Origin: Escherichia coli
GTDB lineage: Bacteria > Pseudomonadota > Gammaproteobacteria > Enterobacterales > Enterobacteriaceae
Length of the DNA: 64,000 bases
Direction: 5' to 3' (one strand)
Assembly: GCF_041248615.1 (NCBI RefSeq)
Contig: NZ_CP158426.1
This document shows positions 42,355-63,972 of this stretch, piece after piece. A model generated the notes under the pieces. It did no database searches, was not told the DNA's origin, and saw only the letters and a program-made list of their open reading frames with translations. The translations under genes were made by a program, and so were the position numbers. Each line of letters starts with the position of its first letter. The first letter of the stretch is position 1.

Positions 42355-42732
42355 TCACTCCTGACCAAAATCTTTCCACACTAATGCATGAGACTTTGAT
42401 TTATCACCCAAAAATTTACTTACATCTTTCCAAAGTAAAGAATTGCTATCGGTCGCAGTGACTATTGCCTCTATAAGCCCTGTAGCTACAACTGTGGCCA
42501 ATTCATCATCAATCGAGACCATACCATCTTCGACATGTTTAAATATTTTTTCTCTTTCAATATCACCCATTTCATAAAAATTTTTTACAATCGTTTTTCC
42601 AATCTGAGAGAACAACATAACCACCGGTGGAGTTTCTGGATGCCAGTATTCATTAGCTAATGAGACTGTCTCAGACAAAACAGTGGAAAACGATGCCATT
42701 TTTTCTATATAATTAGCAATATATTGGTTCAT
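42355..42732 (-). CDS. Putative immunity protein for the Rhs C-terminal toxin
   Basis: 125 aa AT-rich ORF immediately downstream of the rhs stop; family not recognised. Confidence 0.55.
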   Translation of the reverse strand: MNQYIANYIEKMASFSTVLSETVSLANEYWHPETPPVVMLFSQIGKTIVKNFYEMGDIEREKIFKHVEDGMVSIDDELATVVATGLIEAIVTATDSNSLLWKDVSKFLGDKSKSHALVWKDFGQE

Positions 42733-47231: not shown

Positions 47232-47306
47232 GAATCAATTCCTTCTGCTTTTAATATGGTTTATCTGGTCACTGCACCAGTTCCGTTTTAATTTTTTGCA
47301 CCTGAC

Positions 47307-49448: not shown

Positions 49449-49607
49449 AGCAACCTCCGGGTTTAAGGAAAAACAGACAGTTCGCTGTTAAAGCGGCTGT
49501 AACAGTACAGTGTTACGCTTGCGTTCAGGCACGCTACCGCCGAAGTTTCCGGCATCCGCCATCTCCCGTGAACGTAACCCCTTACTGACAACCTTTCTTT
49601 TTACGGC

Positions 49608-49647
49608 GTAATACAAAAACAGCATCCGGCCTAATAGCCGGATGCTG
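49608..49647 (-). terminator. Rho-independent terminator/attenuator just downstream of hcp
   Basis: GC-rich hairpin cagcatccggc-ctaata-gccggatgctg followed on the minus strand by TTTTTGTATT, about 10 nt after the hcp stop. Confidence 0.6.
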
Positions 49648-49657
49648 TTGGCTTAAC

Positions 49658-50176
49658 TTATGCTTCCAGCGGTGCGCGCCAGTCGTCGGCACCGGAGGTG
49701 CCAGACTTGACGTGTTCCCACTCTATTTTGCGGTAGGCCAGTGAAACTTCGAGCAACTGGGTGAACTCGCGTTTCGCCGGATCCTGGCAATGCGGCATAT
49801 GCAGTTTCATATCGACAATCGTCGAATCGGTCAGGCGGGTGGTGAAATAATGCTCCTGTTTGCCTTCCACAGAGGTACGCCACCAGTGAAGTTCAGTGGT
49901 TGGCAGCATTTCGCCGGAGGCCAGTGCGTTGTACATCAGCGGAACAGCTTTGTTCAGCGCCACGGTAAAAATGAACGGCTTGTGAGCACGCTGACCCGCA
50001 GGCTGGCCGGACTGAGGATCGGTCGGGACAGTAACGTTATGCAGGAATTCCTGCACCAGCATCTCGTCTTCGTGCCCCTGCACATAGATGTTGCCGACAG
50101 AATCAGCGGTAAATGCACCTGCAGTAATATTTCCCTGGGTCTGACCAGTGATGGAGATATAACACGGTGTTGGCAT
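49658..50176 (-). CDS. hcp: T6SS tube protein Hcp (TssD)
   Basis: 172 aa; Hcp family pattern. Confidence 0.9.
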   Translation of the reverse strand: MPTPCYISITGQTQGNITAGAFTADSVGNIYVQGHEDEMLVQEFLHNVTVPTDPQSGQPAGQRAHKPFIFTVALNKAVPLMYNALASGEMLPTTELHWWRTSVEGKQEHYFTTRLTDSTIVDMKLHMPHCQDPAKREFTQLLEVSLAYRKIEWEHVKSGTSGADDWRAPLEA

Positions 50177-50872: not shown

Positions 50873-51373
50873 ATGAGCAAAAAATTTGAAGGCAGCGTCG
50901 CGCCTCGCGAGCGTATAAATATATCCTATGTCCCGAAGACGGACGGCCAGACGGCTGAAGTGGAGCTTCCGCTTAACATGCTCGTTGTCGGCGATACCGG
51001 AAATACGCAGGAGACATCCCCACTGGATGAACGTCAGGCAGTTTCCGTTAACAAGCACAATTTCGGTGCGGTGATGGCTGAAGCAGCCATTGGCCTCAAT
51101 TTTACCGTCCCCGCCACGCTGAAGGGAAGCACAACGGACGATGAACTGAATGTGGCGCTGAATATCAAGTCACTGGATGATTTTTCACCGGACAGCGTGG
51201 CCCGGCAGGTTCCGGAAGTTAATAAATTGCTGGAATTGCGTGAAGCACTGACTGCGCTGAAGGGGCCGATGGGCAACCTTCCGGCATTCCGTACCCAGCT
51301 CCAGGCATTGCTGGAAAATGAGGAGTCCCGCGAGCAGTTGCTCAAAGAAATCGGCCAAGTGAGTGGGAAATAA
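50873..51373 (+). CDS. tssB: T6SS sheath small subunit TssB
   Basis: 166 aa; TssB/VipA family pattern; first gene after the AT-rich region. Confidence 0.9.
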   Translation: MSKKFEGSVAPRERINISYVPKTDGQTAEVELPLNMLVVGDTGNTQETSPLDERQAVSVNKHNFGAVMAEAAIGLNFTVPATLKGSTTDDELNVALNIKSLDDFSPDSVARQVPEVNKLLELREALTALKGPMGNLPAFRTQLQALLENEESREQLLKEIGQVSGK

Positions 51374-51407
51374 CCACCACTATTTCATTAAACAGGGTTA
51401 TCCAGAC

Positions 51408-51632
51408 ATGGCGGCACACAAAAATATCTCCGGGAAAAACCCCCTCTCTGACGAAGACATTTTGCAGGCGGTTTACCGGGTATGTTTCAGCCCGTCCGGT
51501 GAAATCAACCGGGATGGCGTGGATGCGCTGATTACAACACTGGATCGCCGTATCAGTGATCTATTGGATGAGATTATCCATTTTTGTGAGTTTCAGCAGA
51601 GCGCGTCGCACTGGCAGCGCGTACTTCACTGA
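51408..51632 (+). CDS. Short ORF resembling a diverged N-terminal segment of TssC (paralogous fragment)
   Basis: 74 aa from ATG 51408; VDALITTLDRRISDLLDEIIHFCEFQQSASHWQ aligns with VDSMIADIDERISRQMDVIIHAPAFQQVESFWR of the adjacent full-length TssC. Confidence 0.45.
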   Translation: MAAHKNISGKNPLSDEDILQAVYRVCFSPSGEINRDGVDALITTLDRRISDLLDEIIHFCEFQQSASHWQRVLH

Positions 51633-51682
51633 TGGCGAAAAGCCGGTTTCAGAAACACAGCTAAAACAGAAGGATTTTCAGT

Positions 51683-53158
51683 ATGTCTTTACAGGAAGAG
51701 GAACTCGTTTCCAGTCATGCCGGGCAGCCTGAGCAGGCATCGTCGCTGCTTGATCAAATCATGGCACAGACCCGTATTCAGCCCGGTTCGGAAGGTTATG
51801 ACGTTGCCCGCCAGGGTGTGACAGCCTTTATTGCCAGCATCCTGCAATCCACTGCATCTGCCGAACCGGTCAATAAACTGGCCGTGGACAGCATGATTGC
51901 AGATATTGATGAACGCATCAGCCGCCAGATGGATGTCATCATCCATGCGCCTGCCTTTCAGCAGGTCGAGTCGTTCTGGCGCTCACTGAAAACCATGGTG
52001 GATCGCGTTGATTTCCGTGAAAACATCAAGGTCAACGTGCTTCATGTCACCAAGCAGGAACTTCTGGAAGACTTTGAGTTTGCGCCAGAAATTATTCAGT
52101 CCGGATTTTATAAGCACGTTTATTCGTCCGGTTTCGGACAGTTTGGCGGTGAACCCATCGCTGCCGTGCTGGGCGCTTATGAGTTCAAAAATACCGCGCC
52201 TGACATGAAACTGCTGCAATACGTCAGTGCCGTGGGCGCAATGGCGCACGCACCGTTCCTGTCCTCCGTTTCCCCGGAGTTTATGGGGCTGAACTCGTGG
52301 ACCGAACTGCCTAATATCAAAGATCTTTATGCCATCTTTGAAGGTCCGGCCTACACCAAATGGCGCGCCCTGCGAGACTCGGAAGATTCGCGCTATATAG
52401 GGCTTACGGCACCCCGCTTCCTGCTTCGCCAGCCTTATTCACCAACAGATAACCCTGTTAAGAACTTTAACTATCACGAAGATGTCAGCCGGAACCACGA
52501 AGATTATCTGTGGGGTAATACGGCCTGGATGCTGGCGTGCAATGTCGCAGACAGTTTTGCCAAATACCGCTGGTGTCCAAATATCATCGGTCCGCAAAGC
52601 GGCGGCGCAGTGAAAGATCTGCCGGTGCATCTGTTCGAAACGATGGGTCAGATTCAGGCCAAAATCCCAACCGAGGTGCTGGTCACCGATCGCCGCGAAT
52701 TTGAACTGGCTGAAGAGGGTTTTATCACCCTTACCATGCGTAAAGACTCTGATAATGCAGCCTTTTTCTCTGCAAACTCGGTACAAAAACCGAAGCACTT
52801 TCCGGGCAAAGACGCAGAAACCAACTATAAGTTGGGTACGCAGCTTCCTTATCTCTTCATCATCAATCGGTTAGCGCACTACATCAAGGTGTTGCAGCGT
52901 GAACAACTGGGGTCATGGAAAGAAAGGAGCGACTTAGAGAGGGAGCTTAATACCTGGATCCGTCAGTATGTTGCCGACCAGGAAAACCCGCCTGCGGACG
53001 TGCGCAGCCGCAAGCCTCTGCGTGCTGCCAGAGTTGAGGTTATGGATGTGGAAGGCGAACCCGGCTGGTACCAGGTCGCGCTGAGCGTGCGGCCCCATTT
53101 TAAATTTATGGGGGCAAACTTTGAGCTTTCCCTGGTTGGCCGGTTAGACAGGGAGTAA
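51683..53158 (+). CDS. tssC: T6SS sheath large subunit TssC
   Basis: 491 aa; TssC/VipB pattern throughout. Confidence 0.95.
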   Translation: MSLQEEELVSSHAGQPEQASSLLDQIMAQTRIQPGSEGYDVARQGVTAFIASILQSTASAEPVNKLAVDSMIADIDERISRQMDVIIHAPAFQQVESFWRSLKTMVDRVDFRENIKVNVLHVTKQELLEDFEFAPEIIQSGFYKHVYSSGFGQFGGEPIAAVLGAYEFKNTAPDMKLLQYVSAVGAMAHAPFLSSVSPEFMGLNSWTELPNIKDLYAIFEGPAYTKWRALRDSEDSRYIGLTAPRFLLRQPYSPTDNPVKNFNYHEDVSRNHEDYLWGNTAWMLACNVADSFAKYRWCPNIIGPQSGGAVKDLPVHLFETMGQIQAKIPTEVLVTDRREFELAEEGFITLTMRKDSDNAAFFSANSVQKPKHFPGKDAETNYKLGTQLPYLFIINRLAHYIKVLQREQLGSWKERSDLERELNTWIRQYVADQENPPADVRSRKPLRAARVEVMDVEGEPGWYQVALSVRPHFKFMGANFELSLVGRLDRE

Positions 53159-53164
53159 CACGCC

Positions 53165-53578
53165 ATGATACCGGATCGGGAAAGAACCACAGGTTCTCTT
53201 TTTGAGCGTATGGAAGCCTCACCGGCCAGAAACTGGCAAGGAAGCAGTATTCATGCGCTCAGGCAGTCCATTCGCCAGAACCTGCGAAACATTCTTAATA
53301 CCCGATCCGGTAGTTGCCGGGGTGCGCCTGAACTGGGCATTGATGAACCTGAAGGGGCTGAAAACTTCCGCGAATCAATGAGTCTGGCCATCGCGCAATG
53401 TATAGAACGCTATGAACCCCGGATCTCACACGCTGAAGTGCAGGCTGTGGTTTCATCCGCCGCCAGCCCGCTGGATATGACGTTTCGTATTACAGCCTGG
53501 GTGACATTTAACGAAACGCATGAGGTGCTTGAATTTGATATGGCACCGAATGGCAGCCAGCATTACCGGGTGGACTGA
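53165..53578 (+). CDS. tssE: T6SS baseplate protein TssE (gp25-like)
   Basis: 137 aa; position and gp25-like pattern. Confidence 0.85.
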   Translation: MIPDRERTTGSLFERMEASPARNWQGSSIHALRQSIRQNLRNILNTRSGSCRGAPELGIDEPEGAENFRESMSLAIAQCIERYEPRISHAEVQAVVSSAASPLDMTFRITAWVTFNETHEVLEFDMAPNGSQHYRVD

Positions 53579-53581
53579 CAA

Positions 53582-55432
53582 ATGGAATTTGAAGAACGCT
53601 ATTTCCGGGAAGAACTCGATTACCTGCGCCAGCTTAGCAAGCTGCTGGCAACGGAAAAACCCCATCTGGCCCGCTTCCTGGCCGAAAAAGATGCAGATCC
53701 GGATATTGAACGCCTGCTGGAAGGGGTGGCTTTTCTTACCGGCAATCTCCGCCAGAAAATTGAGGATGAATTCCCAGAACTGACGCACGGGCTTATTAAG
53801 ATGCTATGGCCTAATTACCTGCGTCCGGTTCCGGCAATGACCCTTATTGAATATACGCCGGATATGGATAAGTCTTCTGTACCGGTGTTAATCCCCCGTA
53901 ATGAGCAGTTTACAACCAACGCCGGGGAAATCAGAGTTGATGAAGTGCTGCCCTCTGATGCTAAAAAGGAGGAGCCTCCTCCCTGTACCTTCACCCTCTG
54001 CCGGGATATCTGGCTGCTGCCCGTTCGCCTGGAGCAGATTGAAAACCGCAGTACGACCCGTAATGGTGTTATCAACATCACCTTTTCGGTCGCACCGGGA
54101 ACGGACTTCCGCACGCTGGATCTGAACAAACTTCGCTTCTGGCTCGGCAATGACGACAACTATACCCGTGACCAGCTTTATTTATGGTTCTGTGAATACT
54201 TGCAGGGTGCCGACCTGACTGTGGGTGAACAGCATATTCGCCTGCCTGAGTTTATGCTGAAAGCTGTCGGTTTTGAGCCGCAGGATGCCATGCTGCCCTG
54301 GCCGAAAAACGTCCACAGCGGCTACCGGATCCTTCAGGAGTATTTCTGTTACCCCGATGCGTTTCTCTTTTTTGATCTTTGTGGTTGTCCGGCTTTGCCT
54401 GACGGATTGCAGGCGGAATTCTTTACCCTGCAACTGCGTTTTTCGCGCCCTTTGCCCGTGGACATCCGGCTGCGCCGCGATTCCCTGCGCCTGTATTGCG
54501 CACCTGCCATTAATTTATTTATCCACCATGCAGAAGCCATCACGCTGGACAACCGGCGGGCAGACTATCCGCTGGTTCCCAGCCGCCATTACCCACAACA
54601 TTACGATGTATTTTCCGTTAACAGTGTGGTGAGCCAGGTCCAGGATATGTTCAGGAAAAAAGATCTGGGGCGTCCTGTTTCGACGCAGGCCGCGCGCCAG
54701 TGGCCAGCCTTTGAAAGTTTCAGCCATCAGATGGAATACAGCCGGAAGCGGGAAGTGGTGTACTGGCATCACCGGACCAAAACATCCCTGTTCCATCGCG
54801 GCTTTGATCATACTCTTGCCTTTATACATGCTGATGGCAGTTATCCGTCAGATGAATCTCTGCTCAGTAATGAAGTGGTTTCGGTATCGCTGACCTGTAC
54901 CAACCGTGAGCTTCCGTCACAAATTCGTTCCGGCGATATCACCGGCACAACCGGTAAAAATGCGGCTGTTGCTTCATTTCGCAACATTACCCGCCCGACG
55001 CAACCACTCTGGCCGGTCATTGATGGCAGCCTGCACTGGTCCCTACTCTCCGCCATGAACCTGAATTATCTGTCATTACTGGATACGGACGCGCTGAAGC
55101 AGGTCATCGCCAACTTTGATCGCCACGCAATCCATCATCCGCAGACGGCGCGGCTGTCACAACAAAAGCTGGATGCCATTGAGCGTCTGGAGACTCGCCC
55201 TGTCGACCGCCTGTTTACGGGCATTCCCGTCCGGGGGCTGGCCTCCACGCTGTATCTGCACCCGGAGCCGTTTGTCTGTGAAGGGGAAATGTATCTGCTC
55301 GGTACGGTGCTTTCGCATTTTCTGTCGCTGTACGCCAGCGTTAACTCATTCCACATGCTGACCGTTGTGAACACAGAAAGCCAGGAGACATGGAAATGGA
55401 CGGAAAGAACCGGGCAGCATCCTCTTATCTGA
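53582..55432 (+). CDS. tssF: T6SS baseplate protein TssF
   Basis: 616 aa; N-terminus MEFEERYFREELDYLRQL typical of TssF. Confidence 0.9.
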   Translation: MEFEERYFREELDYLRQLSKLLATEKPHLARFLAEKDADPDIERLLEGVAFLTGNLRQKIEDEFPELTHGLIKMLWPNYLRPVPAMTLIEYTPDMDKSSVPVLIPRNEQFTTNAGEIRVDEVLPSDAKKEEPPPCTFTLCRDIWLLPVRLEQIENRSTTRNGVINITFSVAPGTDFRTLDLNKLRFWLGNDDNYTRDQLYLWFCEYLQGADLTVGEQHIRLPEFMLKAVGFEPQDAMLPWPKNVHSGYRILQEYFCYPDAFLFFDLCGCPALPDGLQAEFFTLQLRFSRPLPVDIRLRRDSLRLYCAPAINLFIHHAEAITLDNRRADYPLVPSRHYPQHYDVFSVNSVVSQVQDMFRKKDLGRPVSTQAARQWPAFESFSHQMEYSRKREVVYWHHRTKTSLFHRGFDHTLAFIHADGSYPSDESLLSNEVVSVSLTCTNRELPSQIRSGDITGTTGKNAAVASFRNITRPTQPLWPVIDGSLHWSLLSAMNLNYLSLLDTDALKQVIANFDRHAIHHPQTARLSQQKLDAIERLETRPVDRLFTGIPVRGLASTLYLHPEPFVCEGEMYLLGTVLSHFLSLYASVNSFHMLTVVNTESQETWKWTERTGQHPLI

Positions 55433-56478
55433 GTCCGGGAAATCCCCCGGCAGATAAAGAGCAGAATGATCCGCTGGCACAGGTTTTTCATAACGCCTGC
55501 TCTTACAATTTTTTTGCGATGGCGGAGCTGTTGCACCGCCTGGCACAGGGTGAAAAGGGGACGCCGGAATTATCCCTGCGCGACGATCCGGCACAGGAAA
55601 CCCTGCGTTTCAGCGCCGATGCCAGCCTTGCGTTTCCCCTGAGTGATATCAGTGCGCTGAAACGGGATACGTCAGGGGCATTCAGGATGACCACTACCTT
55701 TATGGGGTTACAGGGGAGCCAGTCGCCTCTCCCCGGTTATTACCTCGATCACCTGGCCTGGAAAGCGGTACATGAACAAAGTCCGGTAGGTGATTTTCTG
55801 GATATGTTCAGCCACCGCCTGACCCAGTTTGTCTGGCATATCTGGCGTAAGTACCGCTATCACATCAGTTTTCGTAACGGCGGTGTGGATGCGTTCTCGC
55901 AGCGCATGTACTCCCTTGTTGGGCTGGGCCACCGCCAGCTTCGCGATAAGCTGGCGATTAATCACAGCAAAATGCTGGCGTATTCCGGGATCCTGGCAAA
56001 TCCGGGACGATCCCCGGAAATAATCTGCGGTCTGGTGTCCCACTGTTTTGATTTGTCAGACGTGACGCTGCAAAACTGGCAACGTCGCAAGGTGGATATT
56101 GAACCGGATCAGCAAAATAGCCTGGGGAGTTATTCACTTAAAAATGGCGAAAAACTGGCAGGAAGATCGGTACTGGGCAACTTTGTTCTGGGTACACGGG
56201 TGCCCGATCTCAGCGGAAAATTCCAGCTCAGTATTACCAGCCTGACCCGAAAACAGTTCCTCTCTTTTCTGCCGTCCGGCGAAAACTTCCTGCCACTGAC
56301 GATGTTTGTGTCCTTCATCCTGCGCGATCAGCTTGCCTGGGACTTACATCTGGGGCTGGCGCCGGAGCAGGTGGGCGCAATGCGCCTGGGCGATAACAAA
56401 AGTGCGCTGCTGGGCTGGACCAGCTTCCTCGGCACACCGGAAGAACGACCTTCAGTCACCATCAGGGTACGGTCGTAA
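55396..56478 (+). CDS. tssG: T6SS baseplate protein TssG
   Basis: Overlaps tssF end; ATG 55396 preferred (AGGAG 8 nt upstream). Confidence 0.85.
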   Translation: MDGKNRAASSYLSPGNPPADKEQNDPLAQVFHNACSYNFFAMAELLHRLAQGEKGTPELSLRDDPAQETLRFSADASLAFPLSDISALKRDTSGAFRMTTTFMGLQGSQSPLPGYYLDHLAWKAVHEQSPVGDFLDMFSHRLTQFVWHIWRKYRYHISFRNGGVDAFSQRMYSLVGLGHRQLRDKLAINHSKMLAYSGILANPGRSPEIICGLVSHCFDLSDVTLQNWQRRKVDIEPDQQNSLGSYSLKNGEKLAGRSVLGNFVLGTRVPDLSGKFQLSITSLTRKQFLSFLPSGENFLPLTMFVSFILRDQLAWDLHLGLAPEQVGAMRLGDNKSALLGWTSFLGTPEERPSVTIRVRS

Positions 56479-56481
56479 ATT

Positions 56482-57783
56482 ATGATAATCACGGAGCAGA
56501 ATATGCCGGAAGAGAAACTACAGACGCTTTCATTGCAGGTCATTAACGGCAGTGAGCTGGAAAGCGGGCGGGCGGCGCGCTGTCTGTTCACACAGCAGGG
56601 AAATGTCGGCCATGGCCCCGAATGCCACTGGTCGGTACAGGATCGTCAGCAGAGCATTCCGGCTCAGGCTTTTACCGTTATCCTGCACGATGGCACATTT
56701 TGTCTGCGCCCGCAGACGGCACAACTGTGGCTGAACCAAGCAAAAGTCACAGCAACATCAGACCTGATACAGCTGCGCCAGGGCGATGAGATCCAGATAG
56801 GGCGTCTGATGGTGAGGGTTCATCTGAACCGGGGAGATATCCCCCATTACGATGAGGAAATGGCCACTCCCGAAACCATCGTCACCAATCGCGATATGCT
56901 CACGGATACCCTGCTGTCAACGGAGGGTGCGCCACACTATCCGGGAATGACTCACCGGCATCAGCTTGCAGACACCGTGGTAAACGGTTTTTCTGCCGAT
57001 CCACTCCAGGCTCTTCAGTCCGAAAGCCTGATTACCACGGGCGATCCGCTTTCAGGCATTGCGGCTGTCCGGCCATCGGCACCGCTGTCCGATCCGGCAA
57101 GTAATGGGGGGATCAATACGCCGTTTATGGATCTGCCGCCCATTTATGCCAGCCCCGGCGATCGTAATGATGACGTCTCTGTGGCAGAAATGGCGCAACG
57201 CCACCTTGCGGTCACCCCCTTACTGCGCGGTCTCGGCGGTTCGCTTACCGTGAGCAATTCCGACGATGCGGATGATTTTCTGGAAGAGGCCGGACGAACG
57301 TTACAGGCCGCAATAAAAGGTCTGCTCGATTTGCAGCAACAGCGTAACAGCCTCTCAGACAAACATTTGCGCCCGCTGGAAGATAACCCGCTGCGCCTGA
57401 ACATGGATTACGCCACCGCGCTCGACGTGATGTTTGCCGAAGGTAAAAGTCCGGTACATCTGGCGGCTCCCGCCGCTGTCAGTGAAAGCCTGCGCAATGT
57501 CCGCCACCACGAAGAAGCTAACCGGGCAGCGATTGTGGAGTCGCTTCGTGTCCTGCTGGATGCTTTCTCACCACAAAATCTGCTGCGCCGCTTTGTGCAG
57601 TACCGCCGCAGCCATGAACTGCGCCAGCCGCTGGATGATGCCGGAGCATGGCAAATGTACAGCCATTATTACGAAGAACTGGCCTCCGATCGCCAGCAGG
57701 GGTTTGAGATGCTGTTTAACGAGGTCTACGCCCAGGTCTATGACCGGGTGCTTCGTGAAAAACAGCGGGAGCCGGAAGCATGA
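56482..57783 (+). CDS. tagH: T6SS FHA-domain protein TagH
   Basis: 433 aa; N-terminal FHA-like domain, long low-complexity C-terminal region. Confidence 0.8.
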   Translation: MIITEQNMPEEKLQTLSLQVINGSELESGRAARCLFTQQGNVGHGPECHWSVQDRQQSIPAQAFTVILHDGTFCLRPQTAQLWLNQAKVTATSDLIQLRQGDEIQIGRLMVRVHLNRGDIPHYDEEMATPETIVTNRDMLTDTLLSTEGAPHYPGMTHRHQLADTVVNGFSADPLQALQSESLITTGDPLSGIAAVRPSAPLSDPASNGGINTPFMDLPPIYASPGDRNDDVSVAEMAQRHLAVTPLLRGLGGSLTVSNSDDADDFLEEAGRTLQAAIKGLLDLQQQRNSLSDKHLRPLEDNPLRLNMDYATALDVMFAEGKSPVHLAAPAAVSESLRNVRHHEEANRAAIVESLRVLLDAFSPQNLLRRFVQYRRSHELRQPLDDAGAWQMYSHYYEELASDRQQGFEMLFNEVYAQVYDRVLREKQREPEA

Positions 57784-58304
57784 ACAGGAAGGCGTTTCTG
57801 GCCTGCGTGCTGATGTGCGTCATATTAACCGGCTGCGAAACGGCGAAAAAAATCAGCGAGGTGATCAAAAACCCGGATATCCAGGTCGGGAGCCTGAAGG
57901 AGCAACCTTCGGAAATAACCGTCACCCTGCTGACCGAACCGGACACAAATACCAATGCGGAGGGTGAATCAGCCGCCGTGGATGTGCAACTGGTGTACCT
58001 GACTGACGACTCAAAATTGCTGGCAGCCGACTATGACCAGATAGCCAGTACGCCGCTACCGGATGTGCTGGGTAAAAACTATATCGACCACCAGGATTTC
58101 AACCTGTTGCCGGACACCATCAAAACCCTGCCGCCGGTAAAGCTGGATGAGAAAACGCAGTTTATTGGTGTCGTGGCCTATTTCTCCGATGACCAGGCCA
58201 CTGAATGGAAACAAATCGAGACGGTGGAAGGAACCGGCCACCATTACCGCCTGCTGGTGCATGTACGTCAAAGCAGCATCGAAATGAAAAAAGAGGATGA
58301 ATAA
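57780..58304 (+). CDS. tssJ: T6SS outer-membrane lipoprotein TssJ
   Basis: 174 aa; lipobox LTGC. Confidence 0.85.
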   Translation: MNRKAFLACVLMCVILTGCETAKKISEVIKNPDIQVGSLKEQPSEITVTLLTEPDTNTNAEGESAAVDVQLVYLTDDSKLLAADYDQIASTPLPDVLGKNYIDHQDFNLLPDTIKTLPPVKLDEKTQFIGVVAYFSDDQATEWKQIETVEGTGHHYRLLVHVRQSSIEMKKEDE

Positions 58305-58306
58305 TT

Positions 58307-59638
58307 ATGGCAACCACCCGCAACAAGGTGATGTGGCAGGAAGGGATGCTGATGCGCCCACACCATTTCCAGCAACAGCAGCGTTACAACGACTACCTGG
58401 ATAACCAGCGTTTCCGGGCCATGAATGATTTATCCTGGGGATTTACCGAACTCACCCTCAACAATGAACTGCTGGCGCAGGGTAAGATCATGATTGACAG
58501 CGCGTCAGGCACACTGCCCGACGGCACCGTCTTTTCTATCCCCGACCAGGACGCACTGCCCGATCCGCTGCACCCGCAACATTTTCCGGACGAAAGAAGC
58601 CGCAATATTTACCTCGCTCTGCCGGTCGCCAGTGATGTGAGAAATGAAATCAGCGACGGGCGGCGAATCGGGCGTTACCGGCTGAATTATGCCGATGTCC
58701 GGGATCTGCATTCAGAAGAAGGTGACGCGCGAACACTGACGCTGGGTCAACTGACGCCGCGCATTATGAGCGGTGCAGAAGATATGAGCGCCTATATTAC
58801 GCTCCCGCTTTGCCGTATCAGCGATCGCCATGCCGACGGCTCCCTGACGCTGGATGACGATTTTATCCCCTCCTGCCAGAATATTCAGGTCAGTAAGAAA
58901 CTGCGTGTTTATCTCAAAGAGGTACAGGGGGCCATTGGCGGACGGGCAAGCGATCTGGCAAACCGCATTGGCTCTCCGGCGCAGAGCGGCATCGCGGATG
59001 TGGCGGAATTTATGATGTTGCAGTTACTTAACCGTAACCAGACCCGGTTTACCCATCGCGCTCGTCGATCCCAGCTCCACCCAGAAGATTTCTACCTTGA
59101 TCTTGCCGGGTTGCTGGGTGAACTGATGACCTTTACCGAGCCGTCGCGCCTGCCCTGCCCGCTTGATGTGTATGATCATCATGACCTGACCAAAACATTT
59201 AAAACGCTGTTACCGGAAGTCAAACGGGCGCTGCATACCGTACTGTCGCCAAGAGCCGTTAATCTGCCGCTGCATCTGCGTGACGGTATCTGGCAGGCCG
59301 ATATCCATGACACAGAACTGCTGCAATCTGCCACCTTTGTGCTGGCCGTGGCGGCAAACATGCCGGTCGATCAGATCCAGCGCCAGTTTATCCAGCAGTC
59401 GAAAATTTCCTCGCCGGAAAAAATCCGCAATATGGTCAGTGTGCAGATACCCGGCATTCCATTGCGTGCCCTGATGGTGGCTCCCCGCCAGCTTCCTTAC
59501 CATTCCGGGTTCAGCTATTTCGAACTCGACAAGAGCGGCCAGGCCTGGACAGAAATGGCTGCCGCCGGGGCCGTTGCACTGCATGTATCCGGCAGTTTCC
59601 CGGATCTGAACATGCAACTGTGGGCGATAAGAGGGTAA
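58307..59638 (+). CDS. tssK: T6SS baseplate protein TssK
   Basis: 443 aa; N-terminus KVMWQEGMLMRPHHFQQQQRY typical of TssK. Confidence 0.9.
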   Translation: MATTRNKVMWQEGMLMRPHHFQQQQRYNDYLDNQRFRAMNDLSWGFTELTLNNELLAQGKIMIDSASGTLPDGTVFSIPDQDALPDPLHPQHFPDERSRNIYLALPVASDVRNEISDGRRIGRYRLNYADVRDLHSEEGDARTLTLGQLTPRIMSGAEDMSAYITLPLCRISDRHADGSLTLDDDFIPSCQNIQVSKKLRVYLKEVQGAIGGRASDLANRIGSPAQSGIADVAEFMMLQLLNRNQTRFTHRARRSQLHPEDFYLDLAGLLGELMTFTEPSRLPCPLDVYDHHDLTKTFKTLLPEVKRALHTVLSPRAVNLPLHLRDGIWQADIHDTELLQSATFVLAVAANMPVDQIQRQFIQQSKISSPEKIRNMVSVQIPGIPLRALMVAPRQLPYHSGFSYFELDKSGQAWTEMAAAGAVALHVSGSFPDLNMQLWAIRG

Positions 59639-59642
59639 GACG

Positions 59643-60404
59643 ATGGATGAGGGGTCACTGTCTCTGCCACCATTTACCGGACACCACGAAAAAAGCCAGC
59701 GCGACTATCATCTCGCGCTTCGTGGCAACAGCCTGAATCCGATGATCGACGCAGCCACGCCGCTCCTCGGTATGGTGATGCGCCTTTCAACCATGAACAG
59801 TCAGACGATGCCGGAGCATCTTTTTGCTCAGGTGGTGACGGATGTTCAGGCCGTGGAGCAACTGCTTCAGGAGCAGGGCTACGAACCGGGCGTGATTATC
59901 TCGTTTCGCTACATCCTCTGCACGTTTATTGATGAAGCGGCGCTCGGTAACGGCTGGTCGAACAAGAACGAGTGGATCAAGCAGTCATTGCTGGTCCATT
60001 TCCACAACGAAGCCTGGGGTGGAGAGAAAGTTTTCATCCTGCTGGAGCGCCTGATCCGTGAACCCAAACGTTACCAGGATCTGCTGGAATTTCTCTGGCT
60101 CTGTTTTTCTCTGGGATTTCGCGGGCGCTACAAAGTGGCAGCACAGGATCAGGGGGAATTTGAGCAGATCTACCGCCGCCTGTACCACGTCCTGCATAAA
60201 CTACGCGGCGATGCCCCTTTCCCGCTGTTACACCAGGACAAAAAAACCCAGGGCGGGCGTTATCAGCTCATCAGTCGCCTGACCATTAAACATATTTTTT
60301 GTGGTGGCGTTGTCGTGCTGGCGTTGTTTTACCTGTTCTATCTGTTGCGGTTGGACAGCCAGACGCAGGACATCCTGCACCAGCTAAACAAATTACTTCG
60401 ATAA
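59643..60404 (+). CDS. tssL: T6SS membrane protein TssL (DotU-like, no peptidoglycan-binding extension)
   Basis: 253 aa; cytoplasmic DotU-like domain plus single C-terminal TM helix. Confidence 0.85.
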   Translation: MDEGSLSLPPFTGHHEKSQRDYHLALRGNSLNPMIDAATPLLGMVMRLSTMNSQTMPEHLFAQVVTDVQAVEQLLQEQGYEPGVIISFRYILCTFIDEAALGNGWSNKNEWIKQSLLVHFHNEAWGGEKVFILLERLIREPKRYQDLLEFLWLCFSLGFRGRYKVAAQDQGEFEQIYRRLYHVLHKLRGDAPFPLLHQDKKTQGGRYQLISRLTIKHIFCGGVVVLALFYLFYLLRLDSQTQDILHQLNKLLR

Positions 60405-60412
60405 GGACGTTT

Positions 60413-63232
60413 ATGATCCAGATTGATCTTCCCACGCTGGTAAAACGGCTTAACCTGTTCTCCCGCCAGGCGCTGGAGATGGCCGCCTCTGAATGTATGA
60501 GCCAGCAGGCAGCGGAAATTACCGTCAGCCATGTGCTTATTCAGATGCTCGCCATGCCACGCAGCGACCTGCGGGTTATTACCCGCCAGGGCGATATTGG
60601 CATGGAAGAGTTGCGCCAGGCGCTGACGGTGGAGAACTACACAACTGCCCGTTCTGCGGACAGCTACCCGGCATTTTCCCCGATGCTGGTTGAGTGGCTG
60701 AAAGAGGGCTGGCTGCTGGCGTCGGCTGAGATGCAGCACAGCGAATTGCGTGGCGGCGTGTTGCTGCTGGCCCTGCTGCATTCGCCGCTGCGTTATATAC
60801 CGCCTGCTGCCGCCCGGTTGTTGACCGGCATTAACCGTGACCGTCTGCAACAGGACTTTGTACAGTGGACACAGGAGTCGGCGGAATCAGTCGTGCCGGA
60901 TGCAGACGGTAAAGTCGCAGGCACACTGACGGACGCTGCTGACACCCTGCTTGCCCGCTACGCCAAAAACATGACCGCAGACGCCCGTAACGGCAGGCTT
61001 GACCCGGTACTGTGCCGCGACCACGAAATCGACCTGATGATCGACATTCTCTGCCGCCGCCGCAAGAACAACCCGGTGGTGGTGGGCGAAGCAGGCGTGG
61101 GTAAAAGTGCCTTAATCGAAGGGCTGGCGCTGCGCATCGTGGCAGGCCAGGTGCCGGACAAACTGAAAAACACCGATATCATGACCCTTGACCTAGGCGC
61201 ATTGCAGGCCGGGGCGTCGGTGAAGGGCGAATTCGAAAAACGCTTCAAGGGGCTGATGGCGGAGGTCATTTCCTCTCCGGTGCCGGTCATTCTGTTTATT
61301 GACGAAGCACATACCCTGATTGGCGCGGGCAACCAGCAGGGCGGGCTGGATATCTCCAACCTGCTCAAACCGGCGCTGGCGCGCGGCGAACTGAAAACCA
61401 TCGCCGCCACCACCTGGAGCGAATACAAAAAATACTTCGAGAAAGATGCCGCCCTGTCGCGCCGCTTCCAGCTGGTGAAGGTCAGCGAACCCAACGCCGC
61501 CGAAGCCACCATTATTCTGCGTGGTCTGTCGGCGGTCTATGAACAGTCTCACGGCGTGCTGATTGATGATGACGCCTTGCAGGCCGCAGCAACGCTGAGC
61601 GAACGTTATCTCTCCGGGCGTCAGTTGCCGGACAAAGCCATTGATGTGCTGGATACCGCCTGCGCCCGCGTCGCCATTAACCTTTCCTCGCCGCCGAAGC
61701 AAATCTCGGCGCTGACCACTCTGAGCCACCAGCAGGAGGCGGAAATTCGCCAGCTTGAGCGCGAGCTTCGCATCGGGCTGCGTACCAACACCTCACGGAT
61801 GACCGAGGTGCTGGTGCAGTACGATGAAACGCTGACGGCGCTGGATGAACTGGAAGCGGCCTGGCATCAGCAGCAGGCGCTGGTCCGGGAGATTATCGCG
61901 CTGCGCCAGCAGTTGCTGGGCGTGGCAGAAGACGATGCGGCGTCGTTGCCGGACGCAGATGCCGCGGAGGATACGCCGCCAGAGTCAGAGTCAGAGTCAG
62001 AGTCAGAGTCAGAGTCAGAGTCAGAGTCAGAGTCAGAGTCAGAGTCAGAACAGGATAATACCGGTGCCGTACCGGCTGATGAGGCCGACAGAGAACAGCC
62101 GGAAGAGACCGCTGAAACAGTTTCCCCGGTACAGCGGCTGGCCCAGCTCACTGCCGAACTGGACGCCCTGCATAACGACCGGTTGCTGGTCTCCCCGCAC
62201 GTCGATAAAAAACAGATTGCGGCGGTGATTGCCGAATGGACCGGCGTGCCGCTCAACCGCCTGTCGCAGAATGAAATGTCGGTCATCACCGACCTGCCGA
62301 AATTGCTGGGCGACACCATCAAAGGCCAAGACCTGGCGATTGCCAGCCTGCATAAGCATCTACTGACCGCACGCGCCGACCTGCGTCTTCCGGGACGCCC
62401 GCTCGGTGCGTTCCTGCTGGCTGGCCCCAGCGGTGTGGGTAAAACCGAAACCGTCCTGCAACTGGCAGAGCTGCTCTACGGCGGTCGCCAGTACCTGACC
62501 ACCATCAATATGTCCGAATTCCAGGAGAAACACACCGTCTCGCGGCTGATTGGTTCGCCTCCGGGCTACGTTGGCTACGGTGAAGGCGGCGTACTGACCG
62601 AAGCGATTCGCCAGAAACCCTACTCGGTAGTACTGCTCGATGAAGTGGAAAAAGCGCACCCGGATGTGCTCAACCTGTTCTACCAGTCGTTCGATAAGGG
62701 CGAAATGGCAGACGGTGAAGGCCGCCTGATTGACTGCAAAAATATCGTCTTCTTCCTGACGTCCAACCTCGGCTACCAGGTAATAGTCGAGCACGCCGAT
62801 GACCCGGAAACCATGCAGGAAGAACTGTATCCGGTGCTGGCCGACTTCTTCAAACCTGCCCTGCTGGCGCGTATGGAAGTGGTGCCGTATCTGCCGCTGT
62901 CGAAAGAGACGCTCGCCACCATTATCGCCGGAAAACTGGCCCGTCTGGATAACGTGCTGCGCAGTCGCTTTGGTGCAGAAGTGGTCATTGAACCGGAAGT
63001 GACGGACGAAATCATGAGCCGCGTCACCCGCGCGGAAAACGGCGCGAGGATGCTGGAATCGGTCATCGATGGCGACATGCTACCGCCGCTCTCGCTGCTG
63101 CTGTTGCAGAAAATGGCGGCTAACACGGCGATTGCCCGGATTCGGTTGTCGGCGGTGGACGACGCATTTACGGCAGACGTGGAAGATGCTCAGAACGACG
63201 AGTCCGTCACAAAGGATGAAACGGTTTTATGA
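60413..63232 (+). CDS. clpV: T6SS AAA+ ATPase ClpV (TssH) carrying an internal (Glu-Ser)11 repeat
   Basis: Two AAA+ modules (GEAGVGKS, GPSGVGKT Walker A); start set to ATG 60413 (AAGGA upstream, just after tssL stop). Confidence 0.95.
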   Translation: MIQIDLPTLVKRLNLFSRQALEMAASECMSQQAAEITVSHVLIQMLAMPRSDLRVITRQGDIGMEELRQALTVENYTTARSADSYPAFSPMLVEWLKEGWLLASAEMQHSELRGGVLLLALLHSPLRYIPPAAARLLTGINRDRLQQDFVQWTQESAESVVPDADGKVAGTLTDAADTLLARYAKNMTADARNGRLDPVLCRDHEIDLMIDILCRRRKNNPVVVGEAGVGKSALIEGLALRIVAGQVPDKLKNTDIMTLDLGALQAGASVKGEFEKRFKGLMAEVISSPVPVILFIDEAHTLIGAGNQQGGLDISNLLKPALARGELKTIAATTWSEYKKYFEKDAALSRRFQLVKVSEPNAAEATIILRGLSAVYEQSHGVLIDDDALQAAATLSERYLSGRQLPDKAIDVLDTACARVAINLSSPPKQISALTTLSHQQEAEIRQLERELRIGLRTNTSRMTEVLVQYDETLTALDELEAAWHQQQALVREIIALRQQLLGVAEDDAASLPDADAAEDTPPESESESESESESESESESESESEQDNTGAVPADEADREQPEETAETVSPVQRLAQLTAELDALHNDRLLVSPHVDKKQIAAVIAEWTGVPLNRLSQNEMSVITDLPKLLGDTIKGQDLAIASLHKHLLTARADLRLPGRPLGAFLLAGPSGVGKTETVLQLAELLYGGRQYLTTINMSEFQEKHTVSRLIGSPPGYVGYGEGGVLTEAIRQKPYSVVLLDEVEKAHPDVLNLFYQSFDKGEMADGEGRLIDCKNIVFFLTSNLGYQVIVEHADDPETMQEELYPVLADFFKPALLARMEVVPYLPLSKETLATIIAGKLARLDNVLRSRFGAEVVIEPEVTDEIMSRVTRAENGARMLESVIDGDMLPPLSLLLLQKMAANTAIARIRLSAVDDAFTADVEDAQNDESVTKDETVL
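61982..62047 (+). repeat. Perfect hexanucleotide tandem repeat (GAGTCA)x11, in frame within clpV
   Basis: Eleven consecutive GAGTCA units counted directly; translated as ESESES... Confidence 0.95.
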
Positions 63233-63972
63233 GCAGGTTGCGCGTTTTCCGGCAGACAGGATGGTTTATCGCGGGCCTGATGACGGGCTTACCCGCCACT
63301 GCCGCGCCCGCAGAAACATCGTCAATGGCCGGTGTGGCGGTCGCCGTCGCCACCACGACCCCGCCGGATGCGACAGCCACGTCACAGGCCATGCAGTCCT
63401 GTCAGCGGGAGTCCGCGGCGCTGGAGCGGCTTGACTGCTATGACCGCCTGCTGGCACCGCTGTCCCCGTCAGGGTTTGACGGGGCGCTGGTCAAAGCCGG
63501 TTTTGTGGGCGAGGCCTGGACCCGCGCCACAGAGCAGGAAAAACGCCGCGAGGGCAACACCACAGAACTGCTGGTGACGCAGGTGCCGGGGGAGCGCCCG
63601 ACGGTGGTGATAACCACCCCGGCTATCGGCCATGTTCCGCCGCGCCCGGTGCTGATGTTCAGTTGCGTGGACAATATCACCCGGATGCAGGTGGCGCTGA
63701 TGCACCCTCTGGATGTCCATGATATCGCCGTCACTCTGAATGCCGACAGCCGGGCATTGCGTAGCCACTGGTTTGTGCGCGAGAACGGCACCCTGCTGGA
63801 GTCCAGCCGGGGGCTGTCCGGGATTGATGAAATTAAGCAACTGTTCGGCGCAAAAACGCTGACAGTGGATACCGGCGCAGATAACGCCGCAGGAAAGCTG
63901 ACCTTTAACATTGACGGGCTGGCAAGGGCGATTGCCCCCCTGCGCGTTGCCTGCCACTGGGCGGGAGAATAA
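63229..63972 (+). CDS. T6SS-associated exported protein (family not firmly assigned)
   Basis: 247 aa; start overlaps clpV stop (ATGA); N-terminal hydrophobic signal-like segment. Confidence 0.5.
   Translation: MSRLRVFRQTGWFIAGLMTGLPATAAPAETSSMAGVAVAVATTTPPDATATSQAMQSCQRESAALERLDCYDRLLAPLSPSGFDGALVKAGFVGEAWTRATEQEKRREGNTTELLVTQVPGERPTVVITTPAIGHVPPRPVLMFSCVDNITRMQVALMHPLDVHDIAVTLNADSRALRSHWFVRENGTLLESSRGLSGIDEIKQLFGAKTLTVDTGADNAAGKLTFNIDGLARAIAPLRVACHWAGE

What the first reader, a model, noticed from the sequence alone, without database searches (positions are those of the whole stretch)
61982..62047. In-frame (GAGTCA)11 microsatellite encoding an (ES)11 tract inside clpV
A perfect 66-bp hexanucleotide repeat sits between the two AAA+ modules of ClpV in an acidic linker. 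Slippage would change length in 6-bp steps, keeping the frame but altering linker length, so this is a likely hypervariable site and an easy source of assembly error. Such a low-complexity insertion is unusual for a conserved Clp-family ATPase.
Basis: seen in the sequence. Interest (0 to 1): 0.5.

Follow-up and report, generated by a model that had tools for sequence, protein, structure and literature searches.

The report
Known variable repeat inside E. coli ClpV
The perfect (GAGTCA)11 repeat is real and varies from 0 to 40 copies between E. coli strains, but it is an ordinary slippage-prone repeat already used for strain typing, sitting in a floppy loop of the type VI secretion ATPase ClpV where length changes seem to be tolerated.

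Summary
Window 61982-62047 is a perfect (GAGTCA)11, in frame, encoding (ES)11 at residues 524-545 of a 939-aa TssH/ClpV (60413-63232) inside a complete type VI secretion cluster.

The hypervariability prediction is strongly supported. This tssH is present in 2736 of 5426 complete E. coli genomes. Copy number, read directly or from amplicon size, runs from 0 to 40, always in 6-bp steps and always in frame. Flanks that are at least 99.8% identical carry 14 different lengths.

The locus is already known. Published primers of the generic E. coli MLVA scheme (GECM-10) match the window exactly and bracket the repeat. It is almost certainly locus CVN016: (amplicon - 478)/6 returns the copy number exactly. 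Two papers print this primer pair as CVN017, apparently because their table is shifted by one row.

Structurally the tract is not in a linker between the AAA+ modules. It lies in a disordered acidic loop (pLDDT below 50) at the motif-2 end of the coiled-coil middle domain. Across ClpVs this site ranges from 5 to 72 residues.

Best explanation: slipped-strand mispairing in a structurally permissive loop, near neutral. A functional tuning role is untested. Interest is low.

The parts
61982..62047 (+). Perfect (GAGTCA)11 hexanucleotide VNTR, encoding (ES)11 = ClpV residues 524-545
   Evidence: TRF gives 61980-62049, period 6, 11.7 copies, 100% matches.
60413..63232 (+). tssH/clpV coding sequence (939 aa plus stop). 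The mechanical ORF starts at the TTG at 60299.
   Evidence: NCBIfam TIGR03345 TssH scores 1119 bits against a cutoff of 885, covering 16-913. Pfam finds AAA 223-334, AAA_lid_9 363-453, AAA_2 662-823 and ClpB_D2-small 829-904. RefSeq orthologues are annotated tssH.
61697..62173 (+). Middle (M) domain coiled coil, residues about 429-587 (helices 429-453, 460-502, 572-587)
   Evidence: DSSP on the AF2 model, mean pLDDT 90.1. Alignment to ClpB 1QVR covers query 178-500 and 576-898.
61919..62125 (+). Acidic, proline-containing low-complexity insertion (residues about 503-571) that hosts the repeat. Residues 520-563 are predicted disordered.
   Evidence: pLDDT below 50 for 520-563. No ClpB counterpart: 75 query residues against about 27 in ClpB. 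The equivalent segment has a median of 19 aa in 122 ClpV representatives.
61689..61707 (+). Exact binding site of published MLVA primer CGCCGCCGAAGCAAATCTC
   Evidence: 0 mismatches. Primer printed in PMC8143711 and PMC8261245.
62211..62232 (-). Exact binding site of published MLVA primer GCAATCACCGCCGCAATCTGTT. The amplicon 61689-62232 is 544 bp = 478 + 11 x 6.
50873..60404 (+). Upstream T6SS genes in the same orientation: tssB, tssC, tssE, tssF, tssG, tagH (FHA), tssJ, tssK, tssL
   Evidence: NCBIfam equivalog hits, all above cutoff.
63229..63972 (+). vasI, immediately downstream and overlapping the clpV stop codon
   Evidence: TIGR03360, 254 bits. Annotated vasI in L019.

Best explanation
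This is an ordinary bacterial coding-region VNTR. A proto-repeat (CCA GAG TCA GAA CAG, a single ES in E. albertii and many E. coli, or GAGGCA = EA in B2-type alleles) expanded in some E. coli lineages by slipped-strand mispairing during replication. The unit is 6 bp, so every gain or loss keeps the clpV reading frame and only adds or removes Glu-Ser pairs. The tract is tolerated because it lies in a long, acidic, intrinsically disordered loop at the motif-2 end of the ClpV middle-domain coiled coil. In ClpB this region docks Hsp70/DnaK. In ClpVs it is free to vary in length and sequence. Instability rises with the length of the uninterrupted tract, so alleles with 1-2 copies are stable across lineages while alleles with 11 or more copies differ between close relatives. 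The locus is already exploited as a typing marker (generic E. coli MLVA, locus CVN016). Shown here: the repeat, the frame, the population polymorphism, the primer identity, the position in the protein and the predicted disorder. Inferred: slippage as the mutational mechanism, and near-neutrality of length changes.
For: Repeat and frame.
Polymorphism read directly in 18 alleles: 0, 1, 2, 4, 6, 8, 11, 12, 15, 18, 31 and 40 units, with no stop codons in the 15 allele fragments that were translated (L001-L015); L018 and L020 were read at the DNA level only.
Evenly spaced sample of 54 genomes: 20 amplicon sizes, differing from 478 bp by multiples of 6 apart from two deletion backgrounds (481 and 463 bp), and Nei diversity about 0.85 by my calculation.
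Flanks at least 99.8% identical carry 14 sizes from 544 to 718 bp, i.e. 11-40 copies. Sister isolates PEC1020 and PEC1021 have 30 and 32 copies.
Length dependence: all 14 sampled genomes of the 97%-identity group have 2 copies, and about 96 E. albertii clusters all have a single ES.
Polarity: L003 is 12 + GAATCA + 18 and L018 is 12 + GAATCA + 27, so only the longer pure block changed.
Known marker: exact primer matches, and (amplicon - 478)/6 equals the copy number in every standard allele. CVN016 is described as highly polymorphic and often absent in PMC3519732, PMC3877011 and PMC5217547.
Slippage and copy-number dependence of E. coli VNTR mutation: PMC3777172.
Permissive site: AF2 pLDDT is below 50 for 520-563 while the rest of the model is above 90. 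The ClpB alignment skips query 501-575. The equivalent segment is 5-72 aa (median 19) in 122 ClpV representatives.
Against: No functional data exist for any allele, so near-neutrality is only inferred. Very long alleles (30-40 copies) persist in what looks like one successful clone, which could equally reflect drift or selection. The M domain regulates ATPase activity in ClpB (PMC7182274), so an 80-residue acidic tail at its tip need not be inert. Large jumps (for example 11 to 18 to 30 or more) could involve recombination rather than simple slippage. The CVN016 label rests on amplicon arithmetic and on my detection of a row shift in two papers. The original paper (Lobersli et al. 2012) could not be read.
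Confidence: 0.8

Rival explanations
1. Adaptive tuning knob. The length of the acidic ES tract at the motif-2 tip of the M domain modulates ClpV hexamer repression or activation, or its access to contracted sheaths. The VNTR would then generate heritable, reversible variation in T6SS recycling or firing rate on which selection acts.
For: In ClpB the M domain, and motif 2 in particular, negatively regulates ATPase activity, and single substitutions such as Y503A/D give hyperactive enzymes (PMC7182274; PDB 4d2x title). The tract sits immediately N-terminal of the position equivalent to ClpB Tyr503 / T. thermophilus Tyr494, which by my reading of the alignment is Val573 in ClpV. Long alleles are kept intact and in frame in many genomes.
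Against: The unit length guarantees the reading frame, so intactness says nothing about selection. The site is length-variable and unconserved across ClpVs, and the loop is predicted disordered. Copy number behaves like other neutral MLVA markers. In Francisella, M-domain motif-2 mutations in ClpB did not affect T6S (PMC7182274). No experiment links the ES length to any phenotype.
Confidence: 0.12
2. Assembly or sequencing artefact. The 11-copy count in this window is a collapsed or mis-assembled repeat rather than the true allele.
For: Tandem repeats can be collapsed by short-read assemblers. Strain 746 has identical flanks but 18 copies.
Against: A 66-bp tract is spanned by ordinary reads. 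Twenty-two independent complete genomes carry the identical 544-bp amplicon with 11 copies. PCR-based MLVA sees the same kind of length variation experimentally (PMC3407997, PMC3877011).
Confidence: 0.03
3. Recombination-driven variation. Unequal RecA-dependent exchange or horizontal replacement of clpV alleles, rather than replication slippage, produces the different lengths.
For: Multi-unit changes occur (11, 18, 23, 30-40 copies in near-identical flanks). Large-step events are reported for long E. coli VNTR alleles, and recombination is discussed as a contributor (PMC3777172).
Against: Flanks stay at least 99.8% identical while the length changes, which argues against allele replacement. 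Neighbouring sizes differ by 1-2 units (30, 31, 32, 33, 34, 35). The 5' block of 12 units and the GAATCA interruption are preserved while only the 3' block changes. Slippage is regarded as the predominant mechanism (PMC3777172).
Confidence: 0.08
4. Regulatory phosphorylation tract. The (ES)n serines are phosphorylated, for example by a T6SS-associated kinase, and link ClpV to the FHA protein TagH encoded four genes upstream.
For: TagH (FHA domain) is in the cluster, and the tract is Ser-rich in an acidic context.
Against: From general knowledge, FHA domains bind phosphothreonine, not phosphoserine. No kinase was looked for or found. Many strains with the same cluster have 0 or 1 ES, so the tract cannot be required.
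Confidence: 0.02

Closest known systems
Generic E. coli MLVA locus CVN016 (GECM-10 scheme; Lobersli, Haugum and Lindstedt 2012, as used in PMC3407997, PMC3877011, PMC5217547, PMC3519732)
   Same: Both primers match the window exactly and bracket the repeat. The unit is 6 bp. The published sizing formula (PS - 478)/6 reproduces the copy number of every standard allele. The reported behaviour also fits: highly polymorphic, absent or null in many isolates including ST131, and a roughly 475-bp product scored as '0 repeats'. This tssH is present in 50% of genomes, and B2-type alleles have no repeat plus 2-3 primer mismatches.
   Different: Two papers from one group print this pair as 'CVN017'. I conclude that their table is shifted by one row, because the pair they call 'CVN016' amplifies a CRISPR remnant between clpA and serW in K-12 (279 bp, repeats 60 bp apart), which makes it the CRISPR locus CCR001. 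The original paper could not be read. None of the typing papers I read mentions that the locus is inside clpV.
E. coli O157:H7 hexanucleotide VNTRs (for example O157-10) studied for mutation dynamics (PMC3777172; Vogler et al. 2006)
   Same: 6-bp units, whole-unit gains and losses, single- and multi-unit steps, and higher instability of long alleles. O157:H7 genomes also vary at this clpV locus (3, 4 and 6 copies).
   Different: I did not test whether the clpV repeat is one of the numbered O157 loci. No mutation rate has been measured for it here.
ClpB/Hsp104 middle domain, motif 2 (the Hsp70/DnaK docking site)
   Same: ClpV has the same class-1 Hsp100 architecture. The M domain is inserted after the AAA-1 lid, with a long helix followed by a return helix. 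The ES tract lies at the position of the ClpB L2-L3 turn.
   Different: ClpB has a short, ordered, conserved turn of about 27 residues that carries Tyr503. ClpV here has 75 residues, mostly disordered and acidic, with Val at the Tyr-equivalent position. From general knowledge, ClpV is not known to work with DnaK.
Phase-variable contingency loci (simple-sequence repeats that switch genes on and off)
   Same: Both depend on slippage of a simple repeat inside a gene involved in interaction with other cells.
   Different: The unit is a multiple of 3, so there is no frameshift. All 15 allele fragments that were translated remain open. At most this changes the length of a protein loop and it is not an on/off switch.

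Membership tests
VNTR / microsatellite typing locus (MLVA CVN016) | Head-to-tail tandem copies of a short unit | tested here: met
   TRF: period 6, 11.7 copies, 100% matches.
VNTR / microsatellite typing locus (MLVA CVN016) | Copy number differs between strains by whole units while the flanks are conserved | tested here: met
   0-40 units. Flanks at least 99.8% identical carry 14 sizes, all 478 + 6n bp.
VNTR / microsatellite typing locus (MLVA CVN016) | Published primer pair flanks the repeat | tested here: met
   0 mismatches at 61689-61707 and 62211-62232.
VNTR / microsatellite typing locus (MLVA CVN016) | Published offset and unit reproduce the allele call | tested here: met
   (amplicon - 478)/6 is a whole number equal to the counted units in the window and in L001-L010. 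The formula is printed in PMC8143711.
VNTR / microsatellite typing locus (MLVA CVN016) | Locus name in the original description (Lobersli et al. 2012) | tested here: inconclusive
   Two secondary tables call the pair CVN017. Arithmetic, published behaviour and the CRISPR identity of the pair printed as 'CVN016' indicate a one-row shift. The original paper is not held.
TssH / ClpV (T6SS sheath-recycling AAA+ ATPase) | Equivalog HMM above the curated cutoff | tested here: met
   TIGR03345 scores 1119 bits against 885. ClpB and ClpA models score below their cutoffs.
TssH / ClpV (T6SS sheath-recycling AAA+ ATPase) | Two AAA+ modules, N domain, M domain, class-1 Hsp100 fold | tested here: met
   Pfam domains. 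AF2 model pLDDT 90.1. Foldseek top hits are ClpC, ClpB and Hsp104 with E down to 1e-62.
TssH / ClpV (T6SS sheath-recycling AAA+ ATPase) | Encoded within a T6SS core gene cluster | tested here: met
   tssB, C, E, F, G, tagH, tssJ, K, L upstream and vasI downstream.
TssH / ClpV (T6SS sheath-recycling AAA+ ATPase) | Binds and disassembles contracted TssB/C sheaths | not testable with these tools
   Needs biochemistry or live imaging.
Phase-variable (on/off) contingency locus | Repeat-number change shifts the reading frame or alters promoter spacing | tested here: not met
   The unit is 6 bp and lies inside the CDS. The 15 allele fragments that were translated (L001-L015, 0-31 units) have no stop codons; L018 (40 units) and L020 (15 units) were read as DNA only, and a 6-bp unit cannot shift the frame.
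ClpB-type M-domain motif 2 (Hsp70 docking) | Short conserved L2-L3 turn with the docking tyrosine (E. coli Tyr503 / T. thermophilus Tyr494) | tested here: not met
   The ClpB alignment breaks at query 500 and resumes at 576. The Tyr-equivalent position is Val573, and 75 mostly disordered residues replace about 27. The role of Tyr503 is taken from PMC7182274.

The most novel reading that the evidence does not exclude
The ES-tract VNTR is a heritable 'rheostat' for type VI secretion. By lengthening an acidic, disordered tail at the regulatory motif-2 tip of the ClpV middle domain, slippage changes hexamer repression or sheath engagement. It would thereby change the rate of sheath recycling, giving E. 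coli clones rapidly evolvable differences in T6SS firing. This would be a quantitative, in-frame analogue of phase variation.
Probability: 0.1. Interest if true: 0.6.

Novelty: already known. Interest (0 to 1): 0.22.

Why it matters
In practice, the repeat is a ready-made high-resolution strain marker: 0-40 copies, with diversity of about 0.85 in a spread sample of complete genomes. The typing literature gives it inconsistent labels, and that can now be corrected: the pair printed 'CVN017' in two papers is CVN016, and the pair printed 'CVN016' is the CRISPR locus CCR001. The repeat also degrades automatic annotation, because most long alleles lose the TssH name. Tracts above about 150-250 bp will challenge short-read assemblies of a T6SS core gene. 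Biologically, it marks the motif-2 tip of the ClpV middle domain as a site that tolerates up to about 137 residues of disordered insertion. That is useful for engineering tags into ClpV. It is also consistent with ClpV having lost the Hsp70-docking function that constrains this site in ClpB. If tract length affected ClpV activity it would be a new kind of quantitative contingency locus, but nothing here requires that.

Tried and rejected
(1) Literature searches for clpV + VNTR and for MLVA + type VI secretion + E. coli found nothing relevant. The link came only from testing printed MLVA primers on the window.
(2) The original MLVA paper (doi 10.1016/j.mimet.2011.11.003) and Vogler et al. 2006 (PMC1482962) are not held. 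The locus name and any O157 locus number therefore could not be checked at source.
(3) The search for homologous proteins with the whole protein returned only E. coli and E. albertii relatives in its top 120. That was useful for the ancestral single-ES state but not for distant ClpVs. The representative search was used for those instead.
(4) Allele numbers in PMC3407997 (ST405 at 21-47, ST38 at 10-20, ST131 at 0) rank in the same order as the in-silico copy numbers of what look like the same clones. I could not verify the sequence types or the numbering convention, so I do not use this as evidence.
(5) On/off phase variation was rejected because of the 6-bp unit and the open reading frames.
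(6) A structured-DNA role was rejected. The single strand folds only into a weak imperfect hairpin (-8.7 kcal/mol, centroid unfolded). This may assist slippage but gives no sign of a functional element.
(7) ORFs on the opposite strand across the repeat (61867-62322 and 62045-62359) were treated as mechanical by-products of a high-GC coding region and not pursued.
Its position is inferred from the secondary-structure order and the ClpB alignment.
Full report
**1. The observation**

The window holds a perfect hexanucleotide array. Tandem Repeats Finder gives 61980-62049, period 6, 11.7 copies, 100% matches and score 140, against 49 for the next best array in the 64 kb. In the GAGTCA register it is exactly 61982-62047, 11 units. 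It lies in frame in the + strand ORF 60299-63232 and reads (ES)11.

The biologically sensible start is the ATG at 60413 (MIQIDLPTLV...). This is 9 bp after the stop of the upstream tssL and gives 939 aa, consistent with the RefSeq CDS lengths of orthologues (for example 925 aa with 4 copies). With that start the tract is residues 524-545.

**2. The gene and its context**

The protein is TssH/ClpV. NCBIfam TIGR03345 scores 1119 bits against a cutoff of 885 over residues 16-913, while the ClpB and ClpA models fall below their cutoffs. Pfam finds AAA (223-334), AAA_lid_9 (363-453), AAA_2 (662-823) and ClpB_D2-small (829-904).

Upstream, in the same orientation, are tssB, tssC, tssE, tssF, tssG, tagH (FHA), tssJ, tssK and tssL. 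Downstream is vasI.

**3. Is it hypervariable? Yes**

The window is E. coli. The 1-kb segment around the repeat is found in 2736 of 5426 complete E. coli genomes, nearly always once per chromosome. The aligned span differs between genomes in 6-bp steps.

I fetched 18 alleles and read the tract directly:

- 0 units: GAGGCA = EA, in B2-like alleles.
- 1 unit, in a background with a 21-bp deletion upstream.
- 2, 4, 6, 8, 11, 12, 15 and 18 units.
- 31 units: 12 + GAATCA + 18.
- 40 units: 12 + GAATCA + 27.

None of the 15 allele fragments that were translated (L001-L015) has a stop codon; L018 and L020 were read at the DNA level only.

In an evenly spaced sample of the ranking, 54 genomes covering the full amplicon gave 20 different lengths. 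Seventeen had 1 unit or fewer, 14 had 2, and 23 had 3-30. By my calculation Nei's diversity is about 0.85. O157:H7 genomes alone show 3, 4 and 6 copies.

Among the 60 best hits, with flanks at least 99.8% identical to the window, there are 14 lengths from 544 to 718 bp, i.e. 11-40 copies. The exact 11-copy amplicon is shared by 22 genomes. Sister isolates PEC1020 and PEC1021 carry 30 and 32 copies.

Short alleles, by contrast, are stable. All 14 sampled genomes of the 97%-identity group have 2 copies, and about 96 E. albertii protein clusters all have a single ES.

In the two long alleles read, the 5' block of 12 units and the GAATCA interruption are conserved, and only the longer pure 3' block differs (18 against 27 units). 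This is what length-dependent slippage in the longest uninterrupted tract predicts.

**4. It is a known typing marker**

I tested the ten primer pairs of the generic E. coli MLVA scheme (GECM-10), as printed in PMC8143711, on the window. One pair matches exactly, at 61689-61707 (+) and 62211-62232 (-), giving a 544-bp product.

That paper and PMC8261245, from the same group, label the pair CVN017. However, the repeat-free amplicon is 478 bp, and 478 is the offset the same paper gives for CVN016. The formula (amplicon - 478)/6 returns the counted copy number for the window and for every standard allele.

Published behaviour also fits CVN016:

- CVN016 is among the most diverse loci, with null alleles (PMC3519732).
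- It gives a roughly 475-bp product scored as '0 repeats' in some ST131 isolates (PMC3877011).
- It is absent in 59% of ESBL isolates, whereas CVN017 was never detected there (PMC5217547).

To resolve the conflict I located the pair printed as 'CVN016' in K-12. It lies between clpA and serW and gives 279 bp, which is shorter than 478. It brackets two GTTCACTGCCGTACAG... repeats 60 bp apart, i.e. a CRISPR remnant. That pair is therefore the CRISPR locus CCR001 (offset 131, period 59).

The printed table is evidently shifted by one row, and the clpV pair is the true CVN016. The original description (Lobersli et al. 2012) is not held, so the name remains an inference. That the locus is a published MLVA marker is not in doubt.

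B2-type alleles carry 2-3 mismatches in one primer and 1 in the other, and have no repeat. This explains the null or '0' calls.

**5. Where the tract sits in the protein**

phmmer against PDB sequences aligns T. thermophilus ClpB (1QVR) to query 178-500 and 576-898. It skips query 501-575, against ClpB 470-496.

An AlphaFold2 model built on 108 diverse ClpVs is confident overall (mean pLDDT 90.1, pTM 0.77). It shows helices at 429-453 and 460-502, then a stretch with pLDDT below 50 at 520-563, then a helix at 572-587. Foldseek confirms the class-1 Hsp100 fold, with ClpC, ClpB and Hsp104 hits at E down to 1e-62.

The tract is therefore not in a linker between the two AAA+ modules. It is in the loop at the motif-2 end of the coiled-coil middle domain, which is inserted in AAA-1. 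Reading the alignment, ClpB Leu497 pairs with query Leu576. The ClpB docking tyrosine (T. thermophilus Tyr494, E. coli Tyr503) then corresponds to Val573.

In ClpB this motif docks DnaK and represses the ATPase (PMC7182274). ClpV lacks the conserved turn and has 75 mostly disordered, acidic residues in its place.

**6. Is such an insertion unusual?**

I aligned 122 full-length ClpV representatives, each under 50% identical to the others, and measured the segment equivalent to query 499-577. The median is 19 residues and the range 5-72. Fourteen of the 122 have 40 or more residues. These inserts are unrelated to each other in sequence but uniformly low in complexity (rich in D, E, A, P, G).

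The query has 79 residues, or 57 without the ES tract, and is the longest. None of the 122 representatives has a dipeptide repeated three or more times. The site is thus a recurrent hot spot for disordered insertions in ClpVs, and the microsatellite is the only unusual part.

The roughly 52-57-residue acidic insert with a single ES is shared by E. albertii and E. coli. It is therefore ancestral to this cluster, and the expansion is specific to certain E. coli lineages.

**7. Mechanism**

Shown: a perfect repeat, whole-unit in-frame polymorphism, length-dependent instability, polarity towards the longest pure block, and location in a predicted disordered and evolutionarily unconstrained loop.

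Inferred: slipped-strand mispairing is the mutational mechanism. This is the accepted mechanism for E. coli VNTRs, with rates that rise with copy number (PMC3777172 and the Vogler et al. 2006 work cited there). From general knowledge, not tested here, E. coli MutS-dependent repair handles loops of only up to about 4 nt, so 6-nt slippage loops largely escape correction. That would help explain why so many E. coli VNTRs have 6-bp units. The single strand can form only a weak imperfect hairpin (-8.7 kcal/mol).

Also inferred: length changes are near neutral, because the loop is disordered, the site tolerates 5-72 residues across ClpVs, and 0-40 ES units all occur in intact genes.

**8. Rival readings**

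- Tuning knob: ES length modulating M-domain regulation of ClpV. This cannot be excluded, because motif 2 is regulatory in ClpB, but nothing supports it. M-domain motif-2 mutations did not affect T6S in Francisella ClpB. I give it about 0.1.
- Assembly artefact: contradicted by 22 identical complete genomes.
- Recombination as the main driver: disfavoured by the identical flanks, the 1-2-unit neighbours and the conserved 5' block.
- Phosphorylation tract: speculative, and not required, since many strains have 0 or 1 ES.

**9. Verdict**

What this analysis adds is:

- its exact placement at the motif-2 tip of the ClpV middle domain;
- the range in complete genomes, 0-40 copies;
- the demonstration that this site is a general insertion hot spot in ClpVs;
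- a correction of a primer-label shift in two papers.

Interest is low.

Noticed in passing
window 61826-61857 (inside tssH, about 125 bp upstream of the repeat); L021 1201-1232: A 32-nt spacer in a type I-E CRISPR array of E. coli strain MS 21-1 is 100% identical to this stretch of tssH. The array is next to ygcE and has 18 repeats with period 61. That strain otherwise has no megablast match to the gene. This suggests CRISPR immunity was acquired against DNA carrying this T6SS cluster. By my reading the target-side flank is GCC, not the canonical AAG PAM.
   Followed up: partly
orthologues of window 60413-63232 in RefSeq E. coli genomes (e.g. L002, L003, L018): PGAP names most long-repeat alleles (about 14 copies or more in the window's background) 'AAA family ATPase' instead of 'type VI secretion system ATPase TssH'. 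Synthetic 18-copy and roughly 40-copy versions of the window protein still score 1122-1125 bits on TIGR03345 (cutoff 885), but the match splits into two stretches at the repeat. That split may be what breaks the naming rule. Two 14-15-copy alleles in a more divergent background keep the tssH name.
   Followed up: partly
primer tables of PMC8143711 and PMC8261245; L016 894-1172 (K-12 clpA-serW intergenic): The printed GECM-10 primer table appears shifted by one row. The pair labelled CVN016 amplifies a 279-bp CRISPR remnant in K-12 (two repeats 60 bp apart), so it is CCR001. The pair labelled CVN017 is the clpV VNTR with the CVN016 offset of 478. By elimination, the pair labelled CCR001 would be CVN017; this last step was not tested.
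   Followed up: yes
L019 1192-2503 (strain NZRM4169): In this strain tssH is split by an IS3-family IS1203 insertion upstream of a 4-copy repeat and is annotated as two partial pseudogenes. Its T6SS ATPase is therefore inactivated.
   Followed up: no
L014 (strain XH990): tssH is annotated as a pseudogene with an internal stop. This allele class also has a 21-bp deletion just upstream of a single GAGTCA.
   Followed up: no
L003 and L018, unit 13 of the tract: A synonymous GAATCA interruption sits at the same position (unit 13) in a 31-unit and a 40-unit allele. The 12-unit 5' block is identical and all the length difference is in the 3' pure block. It is a lineage marker and a sign of polarity in repeat turnover.
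   Followed up: partly
window 42732-50176, minus strand: Large ORFs upstream of the T6SS core genes on the opposite strand (1499 aa, 713 aa, 172 aa) have the sizes expected for Rhs, VgrG and Hcp. They were not annotated here.
   Followed up: no
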